A DNA stretch of 64,000 bases from an uncultured Candidatus Saccharibacteria bacterium (GCA_964653715.1 CAZZGX010000027.1:1836-65835); one strand, 5' to 3'; positions 47,354-62,092 are shown, counted from the stretch's first letter. Notes: generated by a model from the letters alone, not told the origin. Numbers and translations: made by a program.

Positions 47354-47389
47354 AAAAAAATCCCCCCGCCCGAGGCGGGGGGATTTTTT
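47354..47389. terminator. Strong bidirectional intrinsic terminator (A7-ATCCCCCCGCC-CGA-GGCGGGGGGAT-T6)
   Basis: Perfect 11-bp GC stem with flanking A/T runs, 12 nt downstream of the major pilin stop. Confidence 0.85.
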
Positions 47390-50108: not shown

Positions 50109-50618
50109 TTATTGGCGCAGACTGACGGCAGTCTCGAGCGTTTGCGAATACTGATAAATATTGTTTGCGGATGGGTTTTTATACTCAAATGTGGCGACGA
50201 CACGGAGATTGTCTCGTTCTCCCAATTCTGCAAGATTTTTGTAGGAAAGCGCTGTCACGATAACTTCTTTTCCAAGAATTGGTACGGGACTCCCCGCCAA
50301 TTGCGTCATATAGAACATCCCTCCCGCAACGCTGAATGTAATATCTGGATCAGCCCCGGGCATATCGAGCAATAATGGAAAAATCACGCCGTCGAGAGCG
50401 TTCCCTTTCGTAGGACTTGTGATGAGGCGCGCACCTCGGACTTTTTGAGTCAAAATATCAAACGCTAGGCGCGCGTTTGACTCAACTTCTTCTATCGCGT
50501 GCGCTTTAGCGCGATTTGCGGAAATAGAAATCCCAAACATTACAAATCCCGTTACGATAAGGCCGATGACGGCCACGTAGATAAGAGTTTCTATAAATGT
50601 AAATCCTTTTTTCTTCAT
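50109..50618 (-). CDS. Prepilin-type pseudopilin (minor pilin)
   Basis: MKKKGFTFIETLIYVAVIGLIV from ATG 50618. Confidence 0.8.
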   Translation of the reverse strand: MKKKGFTFIETLIYVAVIGLIVTGFVMFGISISANRAKAHAIEEVESNARLAFDILTQKVRGARLITSPTKGNALDGVIFPLLLDMPGADPDITFSVAGGMFYMTQLAGSPVPILGKEVIVTALSYKNLAELGERDNLRVVATFEYKNPSANNIYQYSQTLETAVSLRQ

Positions 50619-50619
50619 C

Positions 50620-53600
50620 CTATTTATAATTAACTCTAACTTCCTTGAGTACCGGCGAGCTCGCGCCGTCTCCACTTAAAAATACTTTGTACTCGACCCA
50701 TCGATTGCCATTGAGCGCGGTCGGCACCAAAGAAGCATTTCTAGCGGTAAAATATGTTCCGGCCCCGCCGGCCCCGTACCACGGTGTCCAAACGCCCGGC
50801 AAACCTGATACATCGGGTGCCGTCCGCAATTGAAATTGAACTGAACACGCGGGAACACATACGGGGATTGATTCATCCCACTCAATAATCTGGACTGGCG
50901 AGGGATCGGACATATTAAAATTTGAAGATGTGAGGAAGCCGCTCCCCACATAGGCGCTTCGCCGCAAAATAACTCCCTGCGCGCCGACAATCCACCCCAC
51001 ACTTTGATTGACCATTTTGACCGCGTTGAGCACGGTGGATACAGGCGACGAGTATACCTGCCACGTTGAGCCGTCCCAATGAAGAATGGTCCCGCCAGCG
51101 CCGACAATCCATCCGTCAGTTGCGGATACCATGTACACGCTATTGAGTGTCGCCGATGTTGGGGATAGAACCGATTGCCACGCGCAGATTGGGGCACAAA
51201 TATAGCGATAAATTCTTCCATTCCCGCCGACAATCCATCCGTCAGTTGCGGATACCATGTACACGCTGTTCCACGCTTGCGTGGAAATCGTTTGAGATGA
51301 CCACGAAGAACCATTCCAATGGAGCACTACCCCGTTATTCCCTACGGCCCAACCGTCACTCGCAGAAATCATGTATATGCTATTGAGTCCCGAACTAGTC
51401 GGAGATGAAACCGCTTGCCACGCGCCACCCGTTTGCCACCCGCCTCCAGTAAAATGCCGGATATTGCCTCCCAAACCCACAACCCACGCATTATCAGGAG
51501 CAAGCGCAAAGAGCGATCGCCACGCGGCAGAACCCTGCTGCAAACTTACGGCGGTAGTACCGTCCCAATGAAAAATTTTTCCCCCGCTTGCCGCAATCCA
51601 GCCATCATTTGCGGAAACCATGGAAATACTATTGAGATCGTTGGTGCTGATATTTGTGGCAAGCGTCCATCCAAAACCATCAAAATGCAGAATGTCTCCG
51701 TTGTTCGTAACGGCCCAAATATTATCCTGCGTGACAATGGAAAGATCGTTGATCGATTGTGTTGTTACAGGATTATATAGAATTGTAATATCCTGAAACT
51801 GTGGTGACACGCTGCCAACGGTGCCACGAGTAAAAGTGACACGGTACTGAAAATATCGGCGAGCGGGCGAACTAATGCTTGAGTTTATATTGTTCGTTTG
51901 TTCAGCTGAAAACGATGACCAGCTTGCATCGGGCGCGGGCGTATTGCCGGTTCTTGTAGAAACTGTCATGGTAGTGCCCACTGGTACCGCTTGAGACCAA
52001 TACATGAGAGCCCAGGTTGTGAGAGGATTGCCGCCATCGAAAATTCTGGAAAAGAGTGTTCCCACGCTCACGTATGATATATCGTAATACGCGATACGCC
52101 CAGAACTTCCAAGAGTCCAGCCGTGCGTTGCATCTTGCATTGTGACTGCATTCCAGCTCATGCCCCCTAAATCAGTAACCTCGGACCACGCGCTTCCCGA
52201 ATAGCGATAGAGTTTTCCGGTTGATCCCGCAATCCAGCCGCTGCTCGGTGATAGCATAAAAACATCATTTAAATTGGTACTCCCCGCAAAACTGCTTACC
52301 GTTTGCCACAAAGTTCCATTATAATGCCGGGCAATGCCATTGTTACCTACAACCCAGCCATCGCTCGCGGAAATCATAAATACCGAATTCCACGCTTCAT
52401 TGCCGGTATCAATTGATTTACTGCCGGTCCAATTGAGCTCATCCCAATGAAGAATTTTACCCGCGAGCCCTACCGCCCACCCATCACTAGATGAAACCAT
52501 ATAGATACTTTTCAAATCTTTGGTTCCAGCGGGCACTGCGTATGCGCCTGACCATGCCGTTCCGTTCCAACGTTTGATTGAGCCATTAGCGCCTACAATC
52601 CAAACATTATCTGCGGCAAGAACAAATACATCATTCCATGTCACGCTATCGCCGGTGCTCAAGAGCGTCCAAGTTGAACCATTCCATCTGTAAGTTCTCC
52701 CACCCGATCCAACCGCCCAACCATCGGTAGTTGTCCGCATATCAATCCCGCGGAGATTTACTGTGGCGCCTAAATTTGCGCTGACTGCCCAATTTGTTCC
52801 ATTGTACCGAAGCACCTGACCGGCATCGGTTACCGCCCAGACATCGCTGGGTCCAATCGCGTCCACATCGGTAATATTTTGAGTAGTCGCAACCGCGCTC
52901 GCCGCGTGCTCTGCCCACTGTTGCGCCTGTGCAAGCGCTACGCTTGCTCCAGCTCCCGTGCCATTTACCGCGGTACCGGACAAAGATCCCGCGTTAAAAT
53001 CAGAATCAGTAGTGTCGAAAAAACTATTTGCGTATGCAGGAACCCAGACACCGTTTGGCAACGCGCGAAGCGTAATTTGTCCTGGGGTTGTAGAGTTGTC
53101 AATATTCCCGTCGTCGCTGTTGTATTGTGTTGCGTTCGACCAGTTTGTCTGCCCCGCGCCTCCCGACCAATCAGTCTGGGTCCATTCACGAGAATCCCAA
53201 TTTGTAAGATACTCATTACGGTCAACATAACTAGAATTTCCCCACGACACGCGCACGCGGACATATTTTGAATGAATATCTTTGTAATTACCGCCAGTAG
53301 GGGGACAAGAAGCGATATTCCCAGCAGGATCGCGACATACCTCATCAAATTGGATGGTCCGCGTATATTTGCCGTTGATCAACTGCGATAACCCGGAAGT
53401 GAGCACCCAGCGATTGCCAACTTCCGAGACAACGGCCGGGCTCGGCACAATCTCATTCCACGCACCATCGCGTACCGAACGAACCGCCTCCATCCCCTCC
53501 TCGGCAAAATGGAACGCTTCTGTTTCTTCGCCTCCTTTGAGAAGTGCTGAAAAATTGCCCGCAGCTAGTGAGGCGATCGAAACCGAGAGAAGCAGGAAAA

Positions 53601-53661
53601 TCGCCATAGCGATAAGAATCTCCATGAGCGATTGGCCTTTTTTATAATCAAGCCGCTTCAT
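50620..53661 (-). CDS. Giant (1013 aa) pseudopilin with about 14 Ycf48/BNR-like beta-propeller blade repeats
   Basis: N-terminus MKRLDYKKGQSLMEILIAMAIFLL (G-x4-E prepilin motif), followed by about 14 repeats of the form (S/T)xxDGW(A/I)VG..G.I..W.G..W. Confidence 0.8.
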   Translation of the reverse strand: MKRLDYKKGQSLMEILIAMAIFLLLSVSIASLAAGNFSALLKGGEETEAFHFAEEGMEAVRSVRDGAWNEIVPSPAVVSEVGNRWVLTSGLSQLINGKYTRTIQFDEVCRDPAGNIASCPPTGGNYKDIHSKYVRVRVSWGNSSYVDRNEYLTNWDSREWTQTDWSGGAGQTNWSNATQYNSDDGNIDNSTTPGQITLRALPNGVWVPAYANSFFDTTDSDFNAGSLSGTAVNGTGAGASVALAQAQQWAEHAASAVATTQNITDVDAIGPSDVWAVTDAGQVLRYNGTNWAVSANLGATVNLRGIDMRTTTDGWAVGSGGRTYRWNGSTWTLLSTGDSVTWNDVFVLAADNVWIVGANGSIKRWNGTAWSGAYAVPAGTKDLKSIYMVSSSDGWAVGLAGKILHWDELNWTGSKSIDTGNEAWNSVFMISASDGWVVGNNGIARHYNGTLWQTVSSFAGSTNLNDVFMLSPSSGWIAGSTGKLYRYSGSAWSEVTDLGGMSWNAVTMQDATHGWTLGSSGRIAYYDISYVSVGTLFSRIFDGGNPLTTWALMYWSQAVPVGTTMTVSTRTGNTPAPDASWSSFSAEQTNNINSSISSPARRYFQYRVTFTRGTVGSVSPQFQDITILYNPVTTQSINDLSIVTQDNIWAVTNNGDILHFDGFGWTLATNISTNDLNSISMVSANDGWIAASGGKIFHWDGTTAVSLQQGSAAWRSLFALAPDNAWVVGLGGNIRHFTGGGWQTGGAWQAVSSPTSSGLNSIYMISASDGWAVGNNGVVLHWNGSSWSSQTISTQAWNSVYMVSATDGWIVGGNGRIYRYICAPICAWQSVLSPTSATLNSVYMVSATDGWIVGAGGTILHWDGSTWQVYSSPVSTVLNAVKMVNQSVGWIVGAQGVILRRSAYVGSGFLTSSNFNMSDPSPVQIIEWDESIPVCVPACSVQFQLRTAPDVSGLPGVWTPWYGAGGAGTYFTARNASLVPTALNGNRWVEYKVFLSGDGASSPVLKEVRVNYK

Positions 53662-54141
53662 CTATTGAATTTGAACAACCCCAAGAACGTTGACGCTGAC
53701 GGCAAGCGTGCCCCCCGTAGAATGCGCGAGTGTCACAAGACCTGCCGCCTGCGGCACGCCGAGACCCTTTGAAAAATAAACATCGCCCAGAGAAAAATTT
53801 GAACTTTGGGTTAGGGCCGAAGGCAAAACGGTTATCTGATCAATACTTGGGTCACGATTGGCAAAAGCAGGACTCGCGCTTGGCGATCCCCACAACGTAA
53901 AACGATTTGTATCAAAATGGACGCCGTATGTCATTCCTCCCGCGCGCGCGGCCGAACGCTCGCGCGCCTGTCTAAGAGTTGCCGCCAACTGATCGGCATA
54001 TTCGTCGAGTTGGGCGCCCCGATAAACATTGCTATAAAGTGGGGTCGCTAAAACCGCGAGTAAAAGGGTGATCGCGAGAACAATAACAAACTCAAAAGCG
54101 GTAAACCCTTTTTTAGCGCTGGATATTGCCCGTAAGCTCAT
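53662..54141 (-). CDS. Prepilin-type pseudopilin (minor pilin)
   Basis: MSLRAISSAKKGFTAFEFVIVLAITLLLA from ATG 54141, overlapping the pilC 3' end by 29 nt. Confidence 0.7.
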   Translation of the reverse strand: MSLRAISSAKKGFTAFEFVIVLAITLLLAVLATPLYSNVYRGAQLDEYADQLAATLRQARERSAARAGGMTYGVHFDTNRFTLWGSPSASPAFANRDPSIDQITVLPSALTQSSNFSLGDVYFSKGLGVPQAAGLVTLAHSTGGTLAVSVNVLGVVQIQ

Positions 54142-55198
54142 AGATGGGCGTAATGATGGCGAGCGCGAATATGACAACTATAATACCTATAATAAGCAAA
54201 AGCATGGGTTCTATAATAGTAGAAAGTGATTTTGCGGTCGTATCGACTCCTTCCTCATAAAAATTAGCAAGATATAAAAGTGTCTCCTCAAAGCGCCCGG
54301 ACTCTTCCCCAACCTGCACCATGCGCGTAACTATTTTAGGAAAAAGTTTTTTGTGCGACTCGAGACTTTCGGCAAGTTTTCCTCCTTTACTGATGTGTAC
54401 CGACACGTCTTCAAGGGCGCGGCGATAATAAAAATTGCCGGTGCTTGAAGCGGTAATATCGAGCGCCTCATCGATATTGATTCCACTTTTAAGCAGCGTC
54501 CCCAGTGTTCTTGAAAAACGCGCGAGATTCGCGCCCATCACAAGGCGCTTGATAAGAGGCGTGTGCAAAAAAATCCAATGGGTCACGGGCTTTATAAAAT
54601 TTTGACGGATAAGCCATACAAAGAAAAAAATAAAAAATACGAGACCAAGAAGCAGCCAAACGCCATCATTTTGAATAAGGTGCGCGAACCAAATAAGAGC
54701 GCGCGTGCTCATTGGTAAGTCTATCTTAAGTCCCTCAAAAAGAGGTATGATCTTTGGAAGCACAACAAAGGACATAAAAATACCGAGGATAAATGTGGCA
54801 ACAAGAATGAACCCGGGATACACCAAGGCGCCTGTCACTTTTGCCGTAAGCTCTTTTTCCTTTTCAAGCTCTTGGGCAACGCTCTCAAGATTTTCGGCGA
54901 GCTGCCCCGAGGCCTCCCCTGCACGCACCGATTCCGTAAAAAGGCCCGAAAATACTCGAGGATAATCTGAAAATGACGAGGAAAGGGAACGCCCCGTCTC
55001 AACCGCTTTGAGGACTCCTCCGAGCGTCGGCTTCAGTCTGCCTTCAGCCGCGTCTGCCGCGATTGAAAGCGCCTCAATGATTGTAAGACCAGACCGCAAC
55101 ATCACTGCCAAGTGCTTGGCAAGCAATGCTCGTTGGGTAAGGCTTACCCCACCAAAAGAAATAGAACGATTTAATTTTTTTACGCTACTTGTTTTCAT
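54113..55198 (-). CDS. pilC: Type IV pilus platform protein PilC (GspF family)
   Basis: Two T2SSF repeats and three TM helices. 361 aa. Confidence 0.85.
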   Translation of the reverse strand: MKTSSVKKLNRSISFGGVSLTQRALLAKHLAVMLRSGLTIIEALSIAADAAEGRLKPTLGGVLKAVETGRSLSSSFSDYPRVFSGLFTESVRAGEASGQLAENLESVAQELEKEKELTAKVTGALVYPGFILVATFILGIFMSFVVLPKIIPLFEGLKIDLPMSTRALIWFAHLIQNDGVWLLLGLVFFIFFFVWLIRQNFIKPVTHWIFLHTPLIKRLVMGANLARFSRTLGTLLKSGINIDEALDITASSTGNFYYRRALEDVSVHISKGGKLAESLESHKKLFPKIVTRMVQVGEESGRFEETLLYLANFYEEGVDTTAKSLSTIIEPMLLLIIGIIVVIFALAIITPIYELTGNIQR

Positions 55199-55581
55199 TT
55201 TTTTCGCTTTGCCAAATGCGTCCGAACCAGCTCCGGCAATTTATTTATTGAAAAATCGGTTTTAACAAGATAGTCGGCGGCACCCAGTTCAAGCCCTGTT
55301 TTGATGTCCGACTCTTGCCCGAGATTAGTGAGAATAATAACCGGAATATGTTTTGTTTCTTTATTAAGCTTAATCTCACTTAAAATATCAAAACCGTTTT
55401 TTTGCGGCAAAATAATATCAAGGAGCACCAAATCCGGTTTCTCCTGCACTACCTTCCCAAGCCCTTCCTCACCTGAAATCGCCATACTGACTTCAAATCC
55501 TTCGCGCTTGAGCTTATCGCTATAGAGCTTTAGAAGAAACTTGTCGTCCTCGATAATAAGAATGTTTTTTTTGTCGTCCAT
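55195..55581 (-). CDS. Single-domain response regulator (CheY-like receiver)
   Basis: ILIIEDDKFLLKLY...LVLLDIILPQKNG has the phospho-acceptor Asp context. 128 aa with no output domain. Confidence 0.85.
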   Translation of the reverse strand: MDDKKNILIIEDDKFLLKLYSDKLKREGFEVSMAISGEEGLGKVVQEKPDLVLLDIILPQKNGFDILSEIKLNKETKHIPVIILTNLGQESDIKTGLELGAADYLVKTDFSINKLPELVRTHLAKRKK

Positions 55582-55584
55582 TGT

Positions 55585-56304
55585 TTAACGCAAGGGTAAT
55601 GTGAAATAAAAAGTGGTTCCTTTCTCTGGCACACTCTCAAACCATATAGTGCCGCCGCTTGCCATAATGATCGCCTTCGAAATGAAAAGCCCGAGCCCCG
55701 AGCCTTCGGCGGCGAGCGCTACCACGCGCGGACTCCGATAAAATTTACTGAATATTTTCTTGCGGTCTGTGGTCGTGATGCCAACACCGCTATCGGCACA
55801 GGCAAAAAGGACCTCTTTTGTATTTTTTGTAACGGCAACCTTAATATTTCCCTTTCCTTTATTATAGCGTATTGCGTTGTAAATAATATTGGTCACGACT
55901 TCTTGGATTTTAGTTGCATCTATCGAAATAAGAGCCACGGGGGAAGGCACATCCAGCGAAATAGTGGTGTTTTTGGCGCTGGCAAACGCGGTAAGATCTT
56001 TAATCACAGTTCGTACGATCTCAACAAAATCAGAAGGACTTTTTTCAAGCGTCATGCGGCTCTCGTCAATCCGAGAAGCATCAAGCAAATTTTTGACAAG
56101 CTGAATCATCTTATCCGTGCCTCCATAGGCTAGGCGCAAATATTCTTCCTGTTCGGGAGAAAGTTTTCCCAAATCGCCGGAAAGAAGCACCTCTATCGAA
56201 GACTTTATGCCCGCGAGCGGAGTTTTCAATTGATGCGCGATAACCGACGTAACTTCGGTAATTCTTTTTTCGCTTTTAAGTGAAAGTGTTTTTTTTGATC
56301 TCAT
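55585..56304 (-). CDS. Sensor-less histidine kinase (DHp + HATPase_c only)
   Basis: H-box IAHQLKTPLAGI and N/G1/G2 boxes (NAIRYN, DSGVGI, GSGLGL). No TM or sensor domain. 239 aa. Confidence 0.85.
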   Translation of the reverse strand: MRSKKTLSLKSEKRITEVTSVIAHQLKTPLAGIKSSIEVLLSGDLGKLSPEQEEYLRLAYGGTDKMIQLVKNLLDASRIDESRMTLEKSPSDFVEIVRTVIKDLTAFASAKNTTISLDVPSPVALISIDATKIQEVVTNIIYNAIRYNKGKGNIKVAVTKNTKEVLFACADSGVGITTTDRKKIFSKFYRSPRVVALAAEGSGLGLFISKAIIMASGGTIWFESVPEKGTTFYFTLPLR

Positions 56305-56306
56305 TG

Positions 56307-58094
56307 TTATTCTTTAGTGGCGCGGATAACTTCTTCAAGCGTGGTAATGCCTACAATAACTTTCTGAATCCCGTCCTCGAGCATCGTGGTCATGCCGCTA
56401 CTCTCTGCCACTTTCATAATTTCGATAGAGGCCGCCCGTTTGGTAATTAAATCTTTAATTTCATCGTTCATCAAAAGCACTTCAAAAATTCCAACCCGCC
56501 CGAGGTATCCCGTGCTAGAGCAAACAGGACATCCCCCGCCCTTGTAAAAACGAATTTTCGCAAACGACGATTTATTCTTTATCTTTAAAAGCTTTTTTAA
56601 GTGCGGGTCCTCTTCGATCATTGCCTTTTCCTCCGGAAGAAGTTTATACGAGACGCGGCACTTCTCACAAATGCGGCGCACGAGTCGCTGGGCGATGATA
56701 CAATTGACGGTTGAGGCCACAAGAAATGGCTCGACCTTCATATCCAAAAGGCGCGGCAGAGTGGTCGCCGCGTCATTTGCGTGGAGCGTTGAGAGGACGA
56801 GGTGGCCGGTCATGGCTGAGTTTACGGCGATATCAGCGGTTTCCTCATCGCGGATCTCGCCGACCATAATCATGTCCGGGTCCTGCCGGACGATCGCGCG
56901 AAGTCCTTTTGCGAACGTCAGATTGGTTCTTGAGTTTACCTGAATTTGGCTGACTCCTTCAATTTCATATTCAACAGGATCCTCAATGGTTGAGATATGA
57001 ACGTCGCGGGTGTTTAAAATTTTGAGCATGCCGTAGACCGTCGTCGTCTTCCCGGATCCCGTAGGGCCTGTTACAAGAATCATCCCGTGCGGATTGTCGA
57101 TCGAGCGGCGGACTTTTTTAAAATCAGCCTCACCCAACCCCAAATCCGTAAGGCCAAATTGCCGGCTCCGAGCCGAGAGGATACGCATGACGACATTTTC
57201 GCCTTCGGTCACCGGCACAATGGAAATACGAACGTCCACTTTTTCATCATCGGCCTCAAAAGCAAGCTTACCATCCTGTGCCGCGCGGTGCTCGTCAGTA
57301 CGCATTTTCGATAATATTTTTATGCGCGTCAAAATCAAATCCATGAGCGCTTTGGGCACGTCAAGAACATCGTGCATAACGCCGTCAACTCGAAAGCGAA
57401 CCATTACCTTGCCGGGGTGCGGCTCCACATGAATATCGGATGCCTTTGAATCATATCCGTAGTGGAGCAGCATATCGACAACCTCAACGATAGTCTCGTC
57501 GCGCTCCTCTTTTGAAAGAAGAGTGTCGTTGAGCTTGCCAAGAATTTTTTTAAATTCATCGTGAATATTGGCTTTGTAGCGCGCGAGTACATCATCAAAA
57601 CTCCGGCGTGTCATGTAAAACGGCATGACTTTAGCGCCGAGCCGTTTTTCAAGAAGATGCGTTGCCTCAAAATCATCGGGATCGCGCATGCCTACCTTGA
57701 CGCCCGCACCCCTGCGCGAGAAGGCAACCACACCGCGCGCGCGCGCAACTGCTTCGGGAATTTCGTGAAGTAGCGCCTCATCAATTTTTTCTTCCTTAAG
57801 ATCGACGAAGGAAACTCCCAGCTCCTCTGCTATGATCTTACCTAGCTGGTCGTCATTGATAAGGTCCTTATCAATCAAAAGCTCGTCGAGTGCTTTCCCC
57901 TGCTCACCTGCTTCTTTTTTGGCAAGCTCAAAATCCGCCTCCGAGACAAGACCGGGCTTTACCAGCAACTCCTTTATTTTTTCATCGGTAAGGTCCACAG
58001 CTAAATTTAATTGTATTATAACTGAAAGCGGTAGATGGAGACAGTGCTTTGTTTTAAAGTATATATTGGTGGTCTTTGGAGGGATCAATGACAA
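56307..58094 (-). CDS. pilB: Type IV pilus assembly ATPase PilB (GspE family)
   Basis: N-terminal GSPII_E_N domain, Walker A GPTGSGKTTT, and a tetra-Cys motif (CEKC...CPVC). 595 aa. The N-terminus overlaps the divergent XRE gene; the true start may be the downstream GTG at 57998. Confidence 0.9.
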   Translation of the reverse strand: MSLIPPKTTNIYFKTKHCLHLPLSVIIQLNLAVDLTDEKIKELLVKPGLVSEADFELAKKEAGEQGKALDELLIDKDLINDDQLGKIIAEELGVSFVDLKEEKIDEALLHEIPEAVARARGVVAFSRRGAGVKVGMRDPDDFEATHLLEKRLGAKVMPFYMTRRSFDDVLARYKANIHDEFKKILGKLNDTLLSKEERDETIVEVVDMLLHYGYDSKASDIHVEPHPGKVMVRFRVDGVMHDVLDVPKALMDLILTRIKILSKMRTDEHRAAQDGKLAFEADDEKVDVRISIVPVTEGENVVMRILSARSRQFGLTDLGLGEADFKKVRRSIDNPHGMILVTGPTGSGKTTTVYGMLKILNTRDVHISTIEDPVEYEIEGVSQIQVNSRTNLTFAKGLRAIVRQDPDMIMVGEIRDEETADIAVNSAMTGHLVLSTLHANDAATTLPRLLDMKVEPFLVASTVNCIIAQRLVRRICEKCRVSYKLLPEEKAMIEEDPHLKKLLKIKNKSSFAKIRFYKGGGCPVCSSTGYLGRVGIFEVLLMNDEIKDLITKRAASIEIMKVAESSGMTTMLEDGIQKVIVGITTLEEVIRATKE

Positions 58095-58342
58095 AGGACG
58101 GTATTAATCAGAAGTTCGTGGCACGACGGATTCGAGAAGCGATAGATATGCATGCCGAAGGCGATATCCAGCTATTTGCGCATTACGTCGGGCTCTCTGC
58201 TTCAGCAATGTACAACTATATCCATACCGAAAGAACCCCTTCAACCAGAGCGCTTTGGAAAATATCTAGATTCACGAACTTGCCAATGGAATGGTTTCTC
58301 ACAGAACCCAAACGGCAAATCACGAACCTTTCAGACAATTAA
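58076..58342 (+). CDS. XRE-family helix-turn-helix transcriptional regulator
   Basis: Cro/C1-type HTH (FAHYVGLSASAMYNYIHTERTPSTRALWKISRFTNLPMEWF). 88 aa. Confidence 0.65.
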   Translation: MEGSMTKDGINQKFVARRIREAIDMHAEGDIQLFAHYVGLSASAMYNYIHTERTPSTRALWKISRFTNLPMEWFLTEPKRQITNLSDN

Positions 58343-58346
58343 AAAA

Positions 58347-58371
58347 ACCGCCCACGGGCGGTCTTTTTTTT
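58347..58371 (+). terminator. Intrinsic terminator (A7-ACCGCCC-ACG-GGCGGT-T9)
   Basis: GC hairpin plus U-run 5 nt after the XRE stop. Confidence 0.8.
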
Positions 58372-58387
58372 ATTAAACACGTCTGCA

Positions 58388-58417
58388 TTGACAAAAGAAC
58401 AGTTTTAGTGTAAGAAT
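58388..58417 (+). promoter_or_regulatory. Consensus-like sigma70 promoter TTGACA-17 nt-TAAGAAT
   Basis: Perfect -35 hexamer, 17-nt spacer and a good -10. About 20 nt downstream lie AAGGAGG and an ATG at 58448. Confidence 0.6.
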
Positions 58418-58447
58418 AAGTTAGACAAATTTGCCAAGGAGGTTTCA

Positions 58448-58909
58448 ATGCGGCGAATCAGGCGATTCTTTCAAAAAATAACTCTCATCGAACTCATCGC
58501 GATTTGTGCAGTGGGAGGTATTACAGGCAAAATGTACCTTCTCGTGCGAGAGCGACAAGATCTGCGAATGCAGATCGGTGTCGTACTGCTCGAGCATAAG
58601 CTCGTGTATCGTTACGAAGAGCGCGGGTTTGGCACTCTTGCGCGTCTTTGCAAAAGTACACCGCGCAAATGGCGCGAGTTTTACTTTACCTGCAAAGCAA
58701 CGAAAAGACCAAGTGCGCCAGCCTCGCTTGTAACCACGATATACCGCAATCGATTCGCGGCCAATCATAAATACGCCGCTTTCAAGCGGCGCTGGCAATC
58801 ATCTGAATGGATCCCCATTCGGCGCTCACCCGGACTTGTCTCGCGACAAGTCCGTTTTTTTATTTATCCGGAAATTCTTTTTAAAATTGTTCTTTCAATA
58901 AAAAAATGA
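58448..58909 (+). CDS. Hypothetical highly basic small protein, OR an untranslated about 440-nt RNA (ORF runs through its own terminator)
   Basis: The best promoter and SD in the window sit upstream. The 153-aa ORF (MRRIRRFFQKITLIELIAICAVGG...) continues about 50 nt past an intrinsic terminator at 58831-58862. Confidence 0.3.
   Translation: MRRIRRFFQKITLIELIAICAVGGITGKMYLLVRERQDLRMQIGVVLLEHKLVYRYEERGFGTLARLCKSTPRKWREFYFTCKATKRPSAPASLVTTIYRNRFAANHKYAAFKRRWQSSEWIPIRRSPGLVSRQVRFFIYPEILFKIVLSIKK
58831..58862 (+). terminator. Intrinsic terminator (CGGACTTGTC-TCGC-GACAAGTCCG + T8)
   Basis: Perfect 10-bp stem plus U-run. It lies inside the 58448 ORF. Confidence 0.75.
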
Positions 58910-58938
58910 GGGTGTCCGGCACCTAGCAGGACACCCTC
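58901..58938 (-). terminator. Intrinsic terminator for minus-strand gene 58978..59580 (GAGGGTGTCC-N11-GGACACCCTC, T7 on minus)
   Basis: 10-bp stem preceded by A7 on plus. Convergent with the plus-strand terminator 40 nt away. Confidence 0.7.
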
Positions 58939-58977
58939 TTAGTCGCAGACACCTGATCAACTTGCTTTAGCCATCGC

Positions 58978-59580
58978 TTACTCGTAAACCACGAGCTTGT
59001 TGTCTCGGTGGTCAAGCGCGATTCGCGGTGGAAGACTCCACTCCTCTGCAAGTTTCTCGACCAGCTGGTCTGACGGCTTGGCAAGTTTGCAACTTTCGTC
59101 GCTAAGCTGGACCCAATTGCCGAACTTGCGCGCGTAGTAGCCATCATCACGCTTTTCTACACGGAACGCGTAGAAACTCGCTTGGTCCTTCGCCTGTGCC
59201 TTATACGCGCCTTTCTGTCCATGCTTGTCTGCGGCGCGTTCGCGGCAAACCGGGCAAGCGCGGTGAAGCTTCAAGAAATCAGAGAAACTGTAATAGGCAT
59301 TCCCGTAGCCGTGGGAATACTCCTCCCTCCCTTCGACGAGCAGGAGTTCTGCTCTACCCGTGGGAACAATTTCGGAGCAATAGGTGCACCAAGTCATTCC
59401 GCGAGCATGGAGTTCCTGCTGGAGAAGCTCGACGCGTTTCGCGCCGTATTCGCTAACTACCTGCCGGAGTGTCTGTTGCTTGGCGGAAAGTTTGAGTGAA
59501 ATCTGGTCGATGTTCTGTGCTGTACGCTCGGCCCGCTTACGCATGGCCAAAAGCTCTGTCGCCATCGCTTCTTGTGCCAT
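58978..59580 (-). CDS. Hypothetical coiled-coil protein with CxxC...CxxC zinc ribbon
   Basis: 200 aa. N-terminal heptad region, then CTYCSE-x27-CPVCRE. SD AAAGGAGAG 7 nt upstream. Local GC is above the window background. Confidence 0.55.
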   Translation of the reverse strand: MAQEAMATELLAMRKRAERTAQNIDQISLKLSAKQQTLRQVVSEYGAKRVELLQQELHARGMTWCTYCSEIVPTGRAELLLVEGREEYSHGYGNAYYSFSDFLKLHRACPVCRERAADKHGQKGAYKAQAKDQASFYAFRVEKRDDGYYARKFGNWVQLSDESCKLAKPSDQLVEKLAEEWSLPPRIALDHRDNKLVVYE

Positions 59581-59654
59581 AAAAAGCTCTCCTTTTTATG
59601 TTTGATTGTTGGAGTTCCATAAACAAGCTACCAAAAACAGCAATAAAAATCAAA

Positions 59655-59688
59655 CGAAAACAGAAACCATTTCAAATTTCTGTTTTCG
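59655..59688 (-). terminator. Terminator hairpin (CGAAAACAGAAA-N10-TTTCTGTTTTCG), T-rich on minus side
   Basis: Perfect 12-bp stem 30 nt downstream of the 59717 stop. Confidence 0.55.
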
Positions 59689-59716
59689 AAAAATCTTTAT
59701 GAAAAAAATTCTTTTG

Positions 59717-60001
59717 CTATTTGATTTTCCTCTCAAGACGAGCAACGCGGGTTTCGAGAAATTTAAACTCATCACGAGTTATTTGATTGTGGCGGATAAG
59801 CGCAAGTTCCGATTTCATAATATCAATATCGCCTTCGACTTTCATGAGCTTCTCGTCAATTTTATCTAATCTTCTCGTATGTTGTTTTGTCTCATCGCGG
59901 ACAAAATCCAAACTTTCTCCAAATACTCTAAAATCAGAGTGGATATTCTCTAAAACAATAGTATAAGCGTCTTTTTCTCTTATCTGCTTTCTCTTGGCCA
60001 T
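59717..60001 (-). CDS. Hypothetical coiled-coil protein (94 aa)
   Basis: Heptad-rich (…LDKIDEKLMKVEGDIDIMKSELALIRHNQITRDEFKFLETRVARLERKIK), AT-rich, with its own terminator. Confidence 0.45.
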   Translation of the reverse strand: MAKRKQIREKDAYTIVLENIHSDFRVFGESLDFVRDETKQHTRRLDKIDEKLMKVEGDIDIMKSELALIRHNQITRDEFKFLETRVARLERKIK

Positions 60002-60063
60002 AAATTTATCTTATCCCCAGAATCTACAAAAGTCAAAATAAGAATCTACAACTCCGTCTCAAA

Positions 60064-60150
60064 GCGGAGAGGGTGAGATTCGAACTCACGAGAGGATTGC
60101 TCCTCTGGCGGTTTTCAAGACCGCTGCCTTCAACCACTCAGCCACCTCTC
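60064..60150 (-). tRNA. tRNA-Ser (anticodon UGA), class II with long variable arm, CCA not encoded
   Basis: Hand fold: GGAGAGG-TG-GCT-GAGTGGTTGAA-GGC-A-GCGGT-CTTGAAA-ACCGC-CAGAGGAGCAATCCTCTC-GTGAG-TTCGAAT-CTCAC-CCTCTCC-G. Confidence 0.85.
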
Positions 60151-60195
60151 CGCTCTACTACGGAATCATTTCAAATTTTTAAGACCGCCGCCTTG

Positions 60196-60405
60196 TCGCG
60201 CTTATCACGCGGTTAAACATGACACGAGTCATGTTTAACGGGCTTCCCGCCTCGCCTCGATGGTGAGTCGAGGCGGGCGCCCGTCAAAAGCAACCCCATT
60301 GCTTTTGACCCACCCAGCCACCCCACCAGTGCAAATAGAATATCAAAATTGGGGCGAATTTCAACTTGAAAATAAATTCGGGGACGTTCCTTTTGGAACG
60401 TCCCC
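60196..60405. repeat. Cluster of four unrelated perfect/near-perfect GC-rich palindromes (stems 11-12 bp) plus minor AT palindromes
   Basis: 60212-60239 GTTAAACATGAC/GTCATGTTTAAC. About 60249-60279 CGCCTCGA/TCGAGGCG. 60283-60309 GTCAAAAGCAA/TTGCTTTTGAC. 60378-60405 CGGGGACGTTCC/GGAACGTCCCCG; the last also acts as terminator for the 60427 gene. Confidence 0.8.
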
Positions 60406-60426
60406 GACTCTTTGTTCGGCCAGCAA

Positions 60427-60735
60427 CTAGACCGGACGGATCTCGTGCACTTTGCGCTGCAACACGACGACCTTGCCATTGAGCGGCGTGGCCACCTGGA
60501 TGCGTTTGCCCACACGGCGGCGCACTTTGCCTGTGAACTCTCGCCTCCCATGCGTAAGCCTTACCTGGTCGCCCGGCGTAATCTTCACAGTGACGCCTTC
60601 GACGATGGTCCCATCTGGAAGGATCAGATCCCGTGGCTCCAGATGCTCGAGGCTCACCGGGGGTACAAACTCTTTGACCCCAGGCCGCAGGTATAGTAGA
60701 GCAGCAACTCCGATGAAAATCAGCAAAATGCTCAT
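60427..60735 (-). CDS. Hypothetical small membrane-anchored protein encoded in a 60+% GC segment
   Basis: 102 aa. SD GGAAGGAGG 6 nt upstream. N-terminal TM (MSILLIFIGVAALLYL) then a beta-rich domain (ILPDGTIVEGVTVKITPGDQVRL...). Hand-counted GC about 63% over 120 nt versus about 33-45% elsewhere. Confidence 0.55.
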   Translation of the reverse strand: MSILLIFIGVAALLYLRPGVKEFVPPVSLEHLEPRDLILPDGTIVEGVTVKITPGDQVRLTHGRREFTGKVRRRVGKRIQVATPLNGKVVVLQRKVHEIRPV

Positions 60736-60874
60736 TTCTGCCTCCTTCCTTCATTGTAAAACAGTTTCATGAACCCAAAAACATTATATCATAATTATAT
60801 TGATTGTCAATATTCGTATAAATCTATTGTTATGCGCGATACTTCGTGCTAGGGATAAGCAGTAATTTATACCA

Positions 60875-62092
60875 ATGAATACCACCAAGGTAGTACAAGA
60901 ACTTGCCCAAGGACCAACACTTTCCATTATCGCGCTTATTGACGCCCTCATAGAAGAAGCGCACGGCCTCCGCGCATCGGACATTCATATTGACCCCAAT
61001 GAAAAAGAAGTTAAAGTGCGCGTGCGCATCGACGGTGTACTGCAAGACACCTATTCCATTCCTAAAGAAATCCAATCTGAAGTTATAACGAGAATTAAAG
61101 TCCTCTCTGGACTCCGCACGGACGAGCACCAAGCGCCGCAGGACGGGCGTTTTAGAATCGTACTTGCAGAGCAAAGTCCAATTGATATTCGCGTATCCAT
61201 CGCGCCTTCTTATTACGGAGAAAATGCGGTTTTGCGTCTTCTTTCCGAACGATCAGAAAAATTCGCGCTTGAGATGCTTGGCTTCAGCGAAGAAAACCAA
61301 GAAAAAATCGCGCGCGCCATCAGAAACCCATATGGAATGATACTGGCAACGGGACCAACGGGATCAGGCAAAACCACGACGCTCTACACCATTTTAAAAC
61401 AGCTCAATACAAAAGAGGTTTCCATTATAACGATCGAAGATCCGATAGAATACGCGCTCGACGGAATCAACCAGATGCAGGTCAACGCGCGGAGCGGTCT
61501 CACGTTTGCAAACGGCCTTCGCTCTATTTTGCGTCAAGACCCTGACATCATCATGGTTGGCGAAATCCGCGATTCCGAAACCGCCGGGCTTGCGGTAAAC
61601 ACGGCGCTCACCGGTCACCTCGTTCTATCCACACTTCACACAAACGACGCGGCAACCACACTCCCCCGCATGCTTGATCTGGGTCTCGAGCCGTATCTCA
61701 TCACTGCCACGGTAAATCTAGTTATTGGCCAGCGACTTGTCAGAAAAATATGTAGAGAGTGCAAAAAAGAGCACGAACTTACGCCTGCGGAACAAAAAAG
61801 TCTCGCAACAACAAAAAATATCCCGGCCTCGTTTAGTCAAATGCGCTCGGTGTGGCGAGGAGCTGGCTGTGAAGCATGCAACGGCAGTGGCTATAGAGGA
61901 CGCCTCGGCATTTATGAGATCATCGAGGTCAACGACGAGCTCAGAAACGCCATGCTCGAGCGATGCTCGTCTGAAAATATAAAAAAAGTTGCGATCCAAC
62001 ATGGCATGAGAAGCATGGTCGAGGACGGTTTTAAAAAAGTATTCAGAGGTCTCACCACCTTCGAAGAAGTTCTCCGCGTCATCCATGAATAA
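60875..62092 (+). CDS. GspE/PilB-family secretion ATPase, short form (second copy)
   Basis: Walker A GPTGSGKTTT, Asp/His boxes, and a tetra-Cys motif (CRECKKEH...CEACNGSG) that marks GspE/PilB rather than PilT. 405 aa. Confidence 0.85.
   Translation: MNTTKVVQELAQGPTLSIIALIDALIEEAHGLRASDIHIDPNEKEVKVRVRIDGVLQDTYSIPKEIQSEVITRIKVLSGLRTDEHQAPQDGRFRIVLAEQSPIDIRVSIAPSYYGENAVLRLLSERSEKFALEMLGFSEENQEKIARAIRNPYGMILATGPTGSGKTTTLYTILKQLNTKEVSIITIEDPIEYALDGINQMQVNARSGLTFANGLRSILRQDPDIIMVGEIRDSETAGLAVNTALTGHLVLSTLHTNDAATTLPRMLDLGLEPYLITATVNLVIGQRLVRKICRECKKEHELTPAEQKSLATTKNIPASFSQMRSVWRGAGCEACNGSGYRGRLGIYEIIEVNDELRNAMLERCSSENIKKVAIQHGMRSMVEDGFKKVFRGLTTFEEVLRVIHE

What the first reader, a model, noticed from the sequence alone, without database searches (positions are those of the whole stretch)
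58343..60874. Compositionally mosaic 2.5-kb islet wedged between two divergent type IV pilus modules and anchored on tRNA-Ser
Both flanks are T4P machinery: pilB with XRE on the left, a gspE-like ATPase with pilC2 and pilins on the right. The interval holds no pilus gene. Its parts are listed here.
- A consensus promoter and SD driving a questionable ORF.
- Two coiled-coil genes, one with a zinc ribbon, each with a private SD and terminator.
- tRNA-Ser(UGA).
- A 200-nt field of four perfect palindromes.
- A 63%-GC membrane-protein gene, against about 45% window background (hand counts over 60-nt lines).
No integrase, transposase or direct repeat of the tRNA 3' end is visible. It therefore looks like either a decayed integrated element or a dedicated regulatory or accessory module for the pili.
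Basis: partly seen in the sequence, partly recalled or inferred. Interest (0 to 1): 0.75.

Follow-up and report, generated by a model that had tools for sequence, protein, structure and literature searches.

The report
tRNA-Ser-anchored patchwork of small gene cassettes
The 2.5-kb gap between two pilus operons of this Patescibacteria genome is neither a pilus module nor one decayed island, but a patchwork beside a serine tRNA gene: a broken extra copy of the tRNA filled with DNA hairpins, one widely shared gene of unknown function with conserved flanks, and three genes found nowhere else.

Summary
The flanks are type IV pilus (T4P) genes. tRNA-Ser(UGA) lies at 60064-60151(-). The interval holds the highest-GC 300-nt window of the 64 kb and several of the lowest, and 4 of the window's 5 perfect hairpins with stems of at least 10 bp.

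Corrections:
- The membrane-protein gene is 58% GC, not 63%.
- At 1.5-kb scale the tetranucleotide signature is ordinary.
- ORF94 has no usable SD.
- Its "terminator" belongs to the neighbouring gene's conserved upstream region.
- A tRNA repeat does exist. It is a degenerate 5' half of tRNA-Ser (60176-60327) that retains a promoter and is split by the hairpin array.

ORF200 belongs to a Patescibacteria-wide family with no Pfam match and no fold match. Its homologues are GC-richer than their hosts and often tRNA-adjacent. Here a direct repeat flanks it. ORF94, ORF102 and ORF153 are orphans, and ORF153 is probably not coding.

Other Patescibacteria loci show pseudo-tRNA fragments plus palindromes beside intact tRNAs, some with small GIY-YIG nuclease genes.

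Best reading: a recombination hot spot assembled from separate events. The pilus link is weak: 4 of about 12 ORF200 contexts.

The parts
58341..58368 (+). Terminator hairpin of the XRE gene; left edge of the interval
   Evidence: Inverted repeat I8; terminator-like site 58347-58362 followed by a T run.
58388..58417 (+). Promoter-like site TTGACA-18-AAGAAT with TG, followed by an AAGGAGG SD at 58436-58442
   Evidence: 10 of 12 matches; sequence.
58448..58909 (+). ORF153. Doubtful coding sequence and palindrome-rich, so probably a structured non-coding stretch. The N-terminus 'QKITLIELIAI' resembles a pilin leader but lacks Gly at -1.
   Evidence: Coding score is 0.070, below all 33 training genes (minimum 0.109) and close to its antisense frame (0.053). 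Only itself is found among 5.8 billion proteins. The transcript 58425-58865 folds with z = -5.2. It has the highest density of GC-rich perfect hairpins in the window. No N_methyl Pfam hit.
58831..58881 (-). Junction repeat J2 (AAAAGAATTTCCGGATAAA, 58863-58881) plus perfect 10-bp hairpin 58831-58854.
   Evidence: The pattern AAAAGAATTT-N3-6-ATAAA occurs only twice in 64 kb, both on the - strand, against 0.01 expected. Hairpin.
58908..58938 (-). Terminator of ORF200, conserved at DNA level in other Patescibacteria
   Evidence: Inverted repeat I10; 84-88% identity to L082, L083 and L085 in this block.
58978..59580 (-). ORF200: a 58-residue N-terminal helix plus a CxxC...CxxC zinc-ribbon beta domain. 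Member of an uncharacterised Patescibacteria-wide family.
   Evidence: 78 homologues at 42-100% identity. Invariant W64, T66, C68, C109, C112. AF2 pLDDT 92.4. No PDB or BFVD fold match and no Pfam, PHROG, NCBIfam or PADLOC match. Highest GC3 of the 66 ORFs.
59581..59716 (-). Conserved upstream region of ORF200. It contains junction repeat J1 (59696-59715), hairpin 59655-59688 with a T run, -35 TTGATT (59648-59653), an extended -10 TGGTAGCTT, the CA-rich 5' UTR GGAACTCCAACAATCAAACA (59599-59618) and an SD.
   Evidence: 83-91% identity to L085 and L089 here, against about 50% at third codon positions. Alignment and hairpin in 5 genomes. Motif hits across loci.
59717..60001 (-). ORF94: AT-rich orphan coiled-coil gene whose stop codon abuts J1. 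Promoter-like sites at 60008-60062; the direct repeat AGAATCTACAA occurs twice (60019-60029, 60041-60051).
   Evidence: Coding score 0.226. GC3 0.37. Singleton cluster. No phage hit. Only sub-threshold coiled-coil Pfam hits. Repeat D9. Promoters.
60064..60151 (-). Intact tRNA-Ser(UGA)
60176..60194 (-). Pseudo-tRNA piece 2, matching tRNA positions 22-40 (D-stem 3' side, anticodon stem 5' side, loop with UAA). Homology ends at the anticodon loop.
   Evidence: 17 of 19 identical (D3). Local score 15 against a shuffle maximum of 14.
60197..60309 (.). Array of four contiguous hairpins with no spacers and no T runs: 60197-60211, 60212-60239, 60240-60282, 60283-60309
   Evidence: (MFE -86.7 kcal/mol, z = -6.0). 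The arms are unique in the window, the fetched loci, viral contigs and plasmids.
60299..60327 (-). Pseudo-tRNA piece 1, matching tRNA positions 1 to about 29 (acceptor 5' strand GGTGGGG plus D arm). No matching 3' acceptor strand exists in the window.
   Evidence: D1. The 18-mer matches only the tRNA, against 0.03 expected. Its acceptor strand is identical to that of the L085 tRNA-Ser.
60337..60364 (-). Promoter-like site TTGAAA-16-TATTCT with TG, ending 10 nt before pseudo-tRNA position 1. It is the only such site upstream of the tRNA.
60378..60407 (-). Terminator of ORF102: perfect 13-bp stem plus a T run
60427..60810 (-). ORF102 (60427-60735): one N-terminal transmembrane helix plus a small beta domain, GC3 0.69, orphan. 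GGAGG SD. A perfect TTGACA-16-TATAAT promoter with TG lies at 60783-60810.
   Evidence: Coding score 0.167. No homologue in 5.8 billion proteins or 1.84 billion representatives; the single hit P0080 is an artefact of 23 identical repeats. Not recorded as a called gene. Promoter 12 of 12. AF2 pLDDT 52, unusable.

Best explanation
The interval is a variable region beside tRNA-Ser(UGA), built from several separate events. It is not a single island and not a pilus module.

SHOWN
- It consists of five self-contained transcription units of differing composition.
- Upstream of the intact tRNA lies a degenerate copy of the tRNA's first 40 nt. The copy keeps a promoter at the right distance. A 113-nt array of four contiguous hairpins splits its D arm.
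- ORF200 sits in a unit of about 835 nt. Its junction motif, upstream hairpin, promoter, 5' UTR and terminator are conserved at DNA level in distant Patescibacteria. In this window a direct repeat flanks the unit.
- The other three ORFs have no relatives anywhere.

INFERRED
- The resident tRNA-Ser gene was broken. A complete replacement copy was laid down next to it by break repair or gene conversion. This is the process that accompanies the hairpin-flanked small GIY-YIG nuclease genes seen beside tRNA genes in other Patescibacteria. Here only an ORF-less scar remains.
- tRNA-Ser is now transcribed with a hairpin-rich leader of about 176 nt and must be released by RNase P.
- ORF200 arrived as a cassette through recombination at the junction motif.
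- ORF94, ORF102 and the ORF153 stretch are lineage-specific insertions at the same hot spot.
- The position between two divergent pilus operons is incidental. It reflects a rearrangement break, since pilB is placed differently here than in relatives.
For: Pseudo-tRNA and its setting
- Pseudo-tRNA pieces.
- Promoter 10 nt upstream of pseudo position 1, with no other promoter-like site before the tRNA.
- Leader fold z = -6.0.
- Hairpin and structure enrichment.

Recurring architecture in other Patescibacteria
- 15 tRNA-fragment repeats were found next to the 96 tRNA genes in the fetched loci.
- Palindromes fill the gaps between fragment and tRNA.
- L045 and L039 carry a pseudo 5' fragment broken in the D loop, then a hairpin module, then a GIY-YIG ORF (Pfam E 7e-17), then an intact tRNA.
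- L045 6110-6260 carries the same hairpin module without an ORF.
- 5 of 8 GIY-YIG ORFs lie 9-80 nt from a tRNA.

ORF200 cassette
- DNA homology runs from 58900 to 59716.
- The upstream 135 nt is 83-91% identical to L085 and L089, while dS is 1.4-2.1.
- J1 and J2 are the only two matches to the junction pattern in 64 kb.
- The same junction motif precedes other cargo genes in L045, L056 (twice), L085 (twice) and L108.
- Homologues exceed their host loci in GC in 14 of 16 loci.
- A tRNA gene lies within 1.2 kb in about 8 of 13 contexts.

Orphans and synteny
- Orphan status.
- Gene order is HK-RR-pilB-pilC in 13 relatives but pilB-HK-RR-pilC here, and those relatives have no islet ORF nearby.
Against: - No GIY-YIG gene, integrase or transposase lies in the 64 kb.
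- The four hairpins are single-copy and match nothing elsewhere. The link to GIY-YIG/hairpin elements is therefore architectural, not sequence homology.
- J2 is a short, degenerate match, and the pattern was partly defined after seeing it.
- The window's J1 keeps only the last 27 nt or so of the longer junction seen elsewhere.
- ORF200's synonymous sites are saturated, so there is no recent transfer. Its flanking conservation could be purely regulatory.
- No close relative of this genome (PilB above 64% identity) was available, so no empty-site comparison exists.
- The fetched loci were chosen through pilB and ORF200, so background rates are rough.
Confidence: 0.55

Rival explanations
1. Native, long-resident intergenic region. 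On this view the small genes are fast-evolving host genes and the hairpins are ordinary terminators or insulators between strong promoters. The GC differences reflect gene-specific constraints. The conserved ORF200 flanks are simply its promoter, UTR and terminator.
For: - ORF200's GC excess is family-wide.
- Purifying selection with saturated dS.
- The tetranucleotide signature is ordinary at 1.5 kb.
- No mobility gene is present.
- Each unit has its own promoter and terminator.
Against: - The pseudo-tRNA 5' half is a rearrangement scar, not a regulatory feature.
- The hairpins at 60197-60309 lack T runs and lie downstream of a promoter.
- The junction motif precedes unrelated cargo genes in other genomes.
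- Three ORFs have no relative among 5.8 billion proteins.
- ORF102 GC3 is 0.69, five sd above the host mean.
Confidence: 0.2
2. Accessory or regulatory module of the type IV pili. On this view ORF200, and perhaps XRE, ORF94 and ORF102, act on pilus assembly or expression and sit between the two operons for co-regulation.
For: - ORF200 homologues lie inside or beside T4P clusters in L083 (pilB-pilC-pilM...tRNA-Arg-ORF200-pilins), L085 (pilM/pilN) and L087 (N_methyl pilin).
- The XRE gene diverges from pilB.
- The ORF153 N-terminus resembles a pilin leader.
Against: - Only 4 of about 12 ORF200 contexts have T4P genes within 5-6 kb. L082, L090/L108, L094/L109, L095, L097, L102, L103 and L110 have none.
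- T4P genes are very common in these genomes.
- L083 and L085 share the tRNA-Arg neighbour, so they are not independent.
- No islet protein hits a pilus Pfam family.
- ORF153 lacks Gly at -1 and has no N_methyl match.
- The other ORFs never co-occur with ORF200.
Confidence: 0.13
3. Single decayed prophage or integrative element that entered at tRNA-Ser and lost its integrase.
For: - tRNA anchoring.
- Orphan genes.
- An XRE-type repressor gene at one edge, with PHROG repressor hits at E 1e-5.
- Strong promoters.
Against: - No repeat of the tRNA 3' end anywhere in 64 kb.
- The duplicated part is the 5' half, and it lies 24 nt from the tRNA.
- The parts have opposite compositional biases.
- No phage or viral-contig relatives exist for any ORF.
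- ORF200 occurs alone in other genomes.
Confidence: 0.08

Closest known systems
Ssn family: single-domain GIY-YIG nucleases flanked by hairpin repeats (NTS/SRM), Nat Commun 2025, PMC11893778
   Same: Other Patescibacteria loci fetched here (L039, L045, L073, L016) hold GIY-YIG-only ORFs of about 80 aa flanked by perfect GC-rich hairpins of 20-50 nt. This matches the hairpin-gene-hairpin layout the paper describes. The window's hairpin array looks like the ORF-less part of such a unit.
   Different: The window has no GIY-YIG gene, and its hairpins are single-copy and unrelated in sequence. The tight link to tRNA genes with partial tRNA duplication is not mentioned in that paper (the word tRNA occurs 0 times). 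Ssn is described as an ssDNA nuclease that modulates transformation, not as a homing enzyme.
Free-standing GIY-YIG homing endonuclease SegB in the phage T4 tRNA gene cluster (PMC2330249)
   Same: A nuclease gene sits among tRNA genes, and cleavage plus repair copies the gene together with flanking tRNA sequence. This would explain a replacement tRNA copy next to a broken resident copy.
   Different: SegB is a phage enzyme with a DNA-binding domain. No partial tRNA duplication or palindrome array is part of that system. No nuclease is present in this window.
tRNA-linked genomic islands with integrase and att repeats
   Same: Variable, compositionally odd DNA lies next to a tRNA gene. In relatives (L056, L045, L073, L008) 17-19-nt repeats of tRNA 3' ends lie 100-250 nt downstream of the tRNA.
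   Different: Here there is no integrase and no 3' repeat. The duplicated piece is the 5' half, immediately upstream. The content is a set of single-gene units, not one element.
REP/BIME clusters and mitochondrial GC clusters (palindromic mobile repeats)
   Same: Back-to-back stable palindromes in non-coding DNA.
   Different: Those are multi-copy families. The four hairpins here differ from each other and are unique in 64 kb and in 110 fetched loci.
Group I introns in Patescibacteria tRNA genes (PMC13011429)
   Same: The same phylum, with tRNA genes as targets of insertions. The pseudo-copy's homology ends at the anticodon loop.
   Different: No intron ribozyme is detected (Rfam). No 3' exon is present. 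The insertion lies in the D arm of a dead copy, not in a spliced gene.

Membership tests
Integrase-type tRNA-linked genomic island | Integrase or recombinase gene next to the tRNA | tested here: not met
   No recombinase domain in any islet ORF (Pfam, PHROG, NCBIfam).
Integrase-type tRNA-linked genomic island | Direct repeat of the tRNA 3' end marking the far boundary | tested here: not met
   No second copy of the 3' 22 nt with up to 3 mismatches in 64 kb. blastn-short finds only chance 10-11-mers.
Integrase-type tRNA-linked genomic island | One coherent atypical composition | tested here: not met
   GC3 values of 0.69, 0.62 and 0.37 lie side by side. At 1.5 kb the tetranucleotide z is -0.7 to +1.0.
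Integrase-type tRNA-linked genomic island | Absent from the same site in related genomes | tested here: inconclusive
   Thirteen relatives (PilB 56-64% identity) lack all islet ORFs within 10 kb of pilB, but gene order differs and no close relative exists.
GIY-YIG (Ssn/Seg-like) hairpin-flanked element at a tRNA gene | GIY-YIG nuclease ORF | tested here: not met
   tblastn with two Patescibacteria GIY-YIG proteins finds nothing in the window. It is met in L039, L045, L073 and L016.
GIY-YIG (Ssn/Seg-like) hairpin-flanked element at a tRNA gene | Perfect hairpin module beside the insertion point | tested here: met
   Four contiguous hairpins at 60197-60309.
GIY-YIG (Ssn/Seg-like) hairpin-flanked element at a tRNA gene | Partial duplicate of the target tRNA next to an intact copy | tested here: met
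   Pseudo positions 1-29 and 22-40 lie upstream of the intact tRNA. The same layout occurs in L045, L039 and L073.
GIY-YIG (Ssn/Seg-like) hairpin-flanked element at a tRNA gene | Hairpin sequence shared with other copies of the element | tested here: not met
   The arms are unique in the window, 107 loci, viral contigs and plasmids. The rest of the genome could not be searched.
Type IV pilus accessory module | Homology of its proteins to known pilus components | tested here: not met
   No pilus Pfam family for ORF153, ORF200, ORF94 or ORF102. No fold match for ORF200.
Type IV pilus accessory module | Conserved co-location with pilus genes across genomes | tested here: inconclusive
   ORF200 lies near T4P genes in 4 of about 12 contexts. 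The other ORFs have no homologues at all.
Type IV pilin (for ORF153) | Class III signal peptide: Gly at -1, hydrophobic +1, Glu at +5, N_methyl HMM match | tested here: not met
   The sequence is QK|ITLIE. Glu at +5 is present, Lys replaces Gly at -1, and there is no PF07963 hit at E<=1.
Integron gene-cassette array | IntI integrase, attC sites, promoterless cassettes | tested here: not met
   No integrase. The units carry their own promoters. The junction motif is a direct repeat, not an attC-type imperfect palindrome.

The most novel reading that the evidence does not exclude
Patescibacteria may possess an undescribed system of single-gene cassettes. Each unit would be led by a conserved junction motif (...ATCGGCTCGAACCATATTTTG-N-GGGCAAAAGAAATTTTTTCATAAG), then a hairpin, then a TTGAYTTTTAT-type promoter. 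The units stack downstream of tRNA genes (Ser, Arg) and carry varied cargo: the ORF200 family, a YdjM-like gene, and other orphans. On this reading the junction is a recombination site. Its use would be coupled to the tRNA-breaking activity of the hairpin-flanked GIY-YIG genes, or to a serine recombinase as in L082. The window would then show a three-slot array (ORF94, ORF200, decayed ORF153 slot) plus the tRNA scar.
Probability: 0.25. Interest if true: 0.8.

Novelty: new variant of a known kind. Interest (0 to 1): 0.5.

Why it matters
- Patescibacteria have tiny genomes, and how they gain and shuffle genes is poorly understood. This interval, read together with the fetched loci, points to tRNA genes as sites that are broken, patched with a replacement copy, and then collect small self-expressing genes.
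- It identifies a well-conserved protein family (ORF200) with a confident predicted structure, no known fold relative, conserved non-coding flanks, and a GC content persistently above that of its hosts. It is a concrete target for functional work.
- It cautions against reading 'between two pilus operons' as functional linkage.
- The essential tRNA-Ser(UGA) probably carries a 176-nt hairpin leader, which is directly testable by RNA-seq.

Tried and rejected
- Known RNA families. Rfam at gathering and at E<=10 finds only the tRNA. The hairpin field and the ORF153 transcript match nothing.
- Group I intron or split tRNA. No 3' half or T-arm copy exists in 64 kb.
- ORF153 region as a tRNA-derived scar. 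There is no similarity above shuffles.
- Phage origin. blastn against phages hits only tRNA-Ser. tblastn of ORF94 and ORF102 finds nothing. ORF200 is absent from IMG/VR. BFVD fold search gives nothing.
- Defence system. There are no PADLOC hits except generic HTH matches for XRE.
- ORF102 homologue P0080 (E 1.6e-45). Rejected: it is 23 identical Calx-beta-like repeats, each matching weakly.
- ORF102 structure. The single-sequence AF2 model has pLDDT 52 and was not used.
- Recent horizontal transfer of ORF200. Rejected by dS of 1.4-2.1.
- att repeats around ORF200 in other loci. None were found.
- Source contig. It could not be retrieved by exact-protein look-up.

Full report
ORGANISM AND FLANKS

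The window comes from a Patescibacteria (CPR) genome. The best PilB matches among 185,579 species genomes are Paceibacteria-type MAGs at 56-64% identity.

Left of the interval lie several T4P genes. These are N_methyl pilins, a 1013-aa pilin-like protein, a PilM-like protein, a GspH-like minor pilin, PilC1, a response regulator, a histidine kinase and PilB. Right of it lie a short GspE-like ATPase, PilC2 and a GspH-like pilin. The statement about the flanks is therefore correct.

In 13 relatives the gene order is HK-RR-pilB-pilC. Here it is pilB-HK-RR-pilC. None of those relatives has an islet ORF or a second ATPase module within 10 kb. The DNA upstream of pilB is thus a synteny break in this lineage. 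No close relative was available for a true empty-site test.

COMPOSITION

Window GC is 0.462. Over 300 nt the sd is 0.039. The single highest 300-nt window (0.60) lies in ORF102, and four of the eight lowest (at or below 0.36) lie in ORF94 and its surroundings.

GC3 values are as follows:
- ORF102: 0.69.
- ORF200: 0.62, the highest of 66 ORFs.
- ORF94: 0.37, the second lowest.
- Host mean: 0.455 +/- 0.046.

The interval as a whole is 47.6% GC. In 1.5-kb windows its tetranucleotide distance is unremarkable, with z from -0.7 to +1.0. The real outlier is the giant pilin gene at 50-54 kb. The mosaic is therefore real at gene scale only. The figure of 63% is an overestimate: the ORF is 58.3% GC.

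SIGNALS AND HAIRPINS

Promoter-like sites number 11 against 3.2 +/- 1.8 expected. Terminator-like sites number 11 against 3.3 +/- 1.8. One promoter-like site is a perfect TTGACA-16-TATAAT with TG in front of ORF102.

Only five perfect hairpins with stems of at least 10 bp exist in the 64 kb, and four are in the interval; shuffles give 0-1. Twelve of the 15 most stable 150-nt windows on the - strand, and six of 15 on the + strand, fall in the interval.

THE tRNA AND ITS BROKEN TWIN

tRNA-Ser(UGA) at 60064-60151(-) is intact.

Upstream of it, on the same strand, two pieces repeat its 5' half:
- 60327-60299 repeats tRNA positions 1 to about 29 (GGTGGGGTGGCTGGGTGGGTCAA...).
- 60194-60176 repeats positions 22-40 (17 of 19 identical, with anticodon UAA).

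The evidence is (0.03 expected by chance).

Between the two pieces sit four hairpins with no spacers and no T runs (60197-60309). The homology ends at the anticodon loop. Twenty-four nt further on, the real tRNA starts.

The pseudo-copy's acceptor strand (GGTGGGG) has no 3' partner in the window, and it equals that of the L085 tRNA-Ser. The intact gene is self-consistent (GGAGAGG...CCTCTCC).

A promoter-like site, TTGAAA-16-TATTCT, ends 10 nt before pseudo position 1. No other promoter-like site precedes the tRNA. I infer two things. The pseudo-copy marks the original gene start. The working tRNA is now made with a leader of about 176 nt (MFE -86.7 kcal/mol, z = -6.0).

THE SAME THEME ELSEWHERE

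In the loci fetched for other reasons, 15 tRNA-fragment repeats lie within 1.5 kb of the 96 tRNA genes found there. They include both 3'-end repeats downstream and 5'-end repeats upstream. The DNA in between is made of long perfect palindromes.

- L045 (tRNA-Ser GCU) and L039 (tRNA-Ile) have this layout: a pseudo 5' fragment broken in the D loop, a hairpin module, a small ORF, and then the intact tRNA. The ORFs are GIY-YIG domains (E 7e-17 and 8e-17).
- L045 6110-6260 has the same hairpin module with no ORF.
- Five of eight GIY-YIG ORFs in the loci lie 9-80 nt from a tRNA gene.

Single-domain GIY-YIG genes flanked by hairpin repeats are the Ssn family (PMC11893778). That paper does not mention a tRNA link. 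T4 SegB shows that a GIY-YIG enzyme in a tRNA cluster can drive copying of neighbouring tRNA sequence (PMC2330249). The known Patescibacteria tRNA introns are group I ribozymes in the anticodon loop (PMC13011429), and nothing of that kind is detected here.

The window has no GIY-YIG gene, and its hairpins match nothing else. The assignment to this class therefore rests on architecture only.

ORF200

ORF200 has 78 relatives at 42-100% identity, of about 210 aa. They come from MAGs labelled Brennerbacteria, Sungbacteria, Zambryskibacteria, Falkowbacteria and Spechtbacteria.

Homologues are GC-richer than their own loci in 14 of 16 cases, by up to 17 points. The GC anomaly here is therefore a family trait. 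Against its homologues, dS is 1.4-2.1 and dN/dS is 0.09-0.17. This indicates old divergence under purifying selection.

DNA homology nevertheless extends beyond the ORF, from about 58900 to 59716. The 135 nt upstream are 83-91% identical to L085 and L089, far above third-position identity of about 50%. That stretch contains the following elements:
- a junction motif;
- a hairpin with a T run;
- -35 TTGATT;
- an extended -10;
- a CA-rich UTR;
- an SD.

ORF94's stop codon abuts the junction motif.

The pattern AAAAGAATTT-N3-6-ATAAA occurs only twice in 64 kb, at 59696-59715 and 58863-58881, both on the - strand. Each copy is followed by a hairpin, and together they bracket ORF200.

The longer junction motif occurs at these places:
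- twice in L085, after tRNA-Arg and before ORF200, bracketing a YdjM gene;
- twice in L056, each copy starting with a tRNA 3' end ...CCGCCA and bracketing a one-gene unit;
- in L045, before an unrelated 119-aa ORF;
- in L108, before yet another gene.

A tRNA gene lies within 1.2 kb of ORF200 in about 8 of 13 contexts. The identities are Ser-UGA (three times), Ser-GCU, Arg-UCU (twice), Ala and one more. T4P genes lie within 5-6 kb in only 4 of about 12 contexts.

THE ORPHANS

- ORF94 has a good coding score (0.226), is a coiled coil, and forms a singleton cluster.
- ORF102 has a coding score of 0.167, a GC1/2/3 pattern of 0.68/0.38/0.69, an SD, a perfect promoter and a terminator. It has no relative in 5.8 billion proteins or 1.84 billion representatives. 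The P0080 hit is a repeat artefact.
- ORF153 has a coding score (0.070) below every training gene and close to its antisense frame. It is made of consecutive palindromes, and its transcript folds with z = -5.2. I think it is probably non-coding. Its 'KITLIELIAI' start resembles a pilin leader but fails the pilin tests.

VERDICT

The best-supported account is a tRNA-Ser-anchored hot spot assembled piecemeal:
- a tRNA break-and-replace scar of the hairpin/GIY-YIG type;
- one junction-flanked, widely shared cassette (ORF200);
- lineage-specific orphan units.

The position between the pilus operons is incidental. The steps from architecture to mechanism are inferred, not shown.

Noticed in passing
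window 54113-58094 compared with L002-L016: The gene order of the main pilus operon differs from 13 relatives. Here it is pilB-HK-RR-pilC1; in the relatives it is HK-RR-pilB-pilC1. No second ATPase/PilC module lies within 10 kb of pilB in the relatives.
   Followed up: partly
window 50200-54000: The 1013-aa pilin-like gene (N_methyl leader plus BNR/YCF48-like domain) is the strongest tetranucleotide outlier of the whole window (z up to 4.3), far more deviant than the flagged interval.
   Followed up: no
L045 6043-6130(-), L047 2770-2858(-): ARAGORN calls tRNA-Ser genes with anticodon ACU (loop UUACUAA) next to ordinary tRNA-Ser genes in two Patescibacteria MAGs. This is an unusual anticodon; they could be variants or pseudogenes.
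   Followed up: no
L039 2970-3600: A resident tRNA-Ile is split by two tandem 38-nt hairpins, a GIY-YIG gene and a second complete tRNA-Ile. A further tRNA-Ile copy carries the same hairpin inside its D loop.
   Followed up: partly
L082 4099-6636: In the Brennerbacteria MAG a large serine recombinase gene (Resolvase, Recombinase, Zn_ribbon_recom) lies between tRNA-Arg(UCU) and the ORF200 unit. An inverted copy of the junction-upstream motif is at 4267-4292.
   Followed up: no
P0076 (346 aa): One ORF200 homologue is fused to an N-terminal YunG domain (PF24585, E 4e-20). This is the only domain fusion seen in the family.
   Followed up: no
L085 10851-11182, L087 2081-2443: In two lineages tRNA-Ser(UGA) follows a DUF5652 gene directly, with RuvX and a tRNA_bind gene next to it. 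This arrangement is absent from the window, where ORF102 and the pseudo-tRNA occupy that side.
   Followed up: partly
window 60783-60876: The 140-nt gap between ORF102 and the GspE-like ATPase holds a perfect consensus promoter facing ORF102, a second promoter-like site, and a 12-nt inverted repeat (60812-60823 / 60865-60876) that overlaps the ATPase start codon.
   Followed up: no
window 47355-47389: The longest perfect palindrome of the window (16-bp stem) lies between a pilin gene and the next gene. It is the only long perfect hairpin outside the flagged interval.
   Followed up: no
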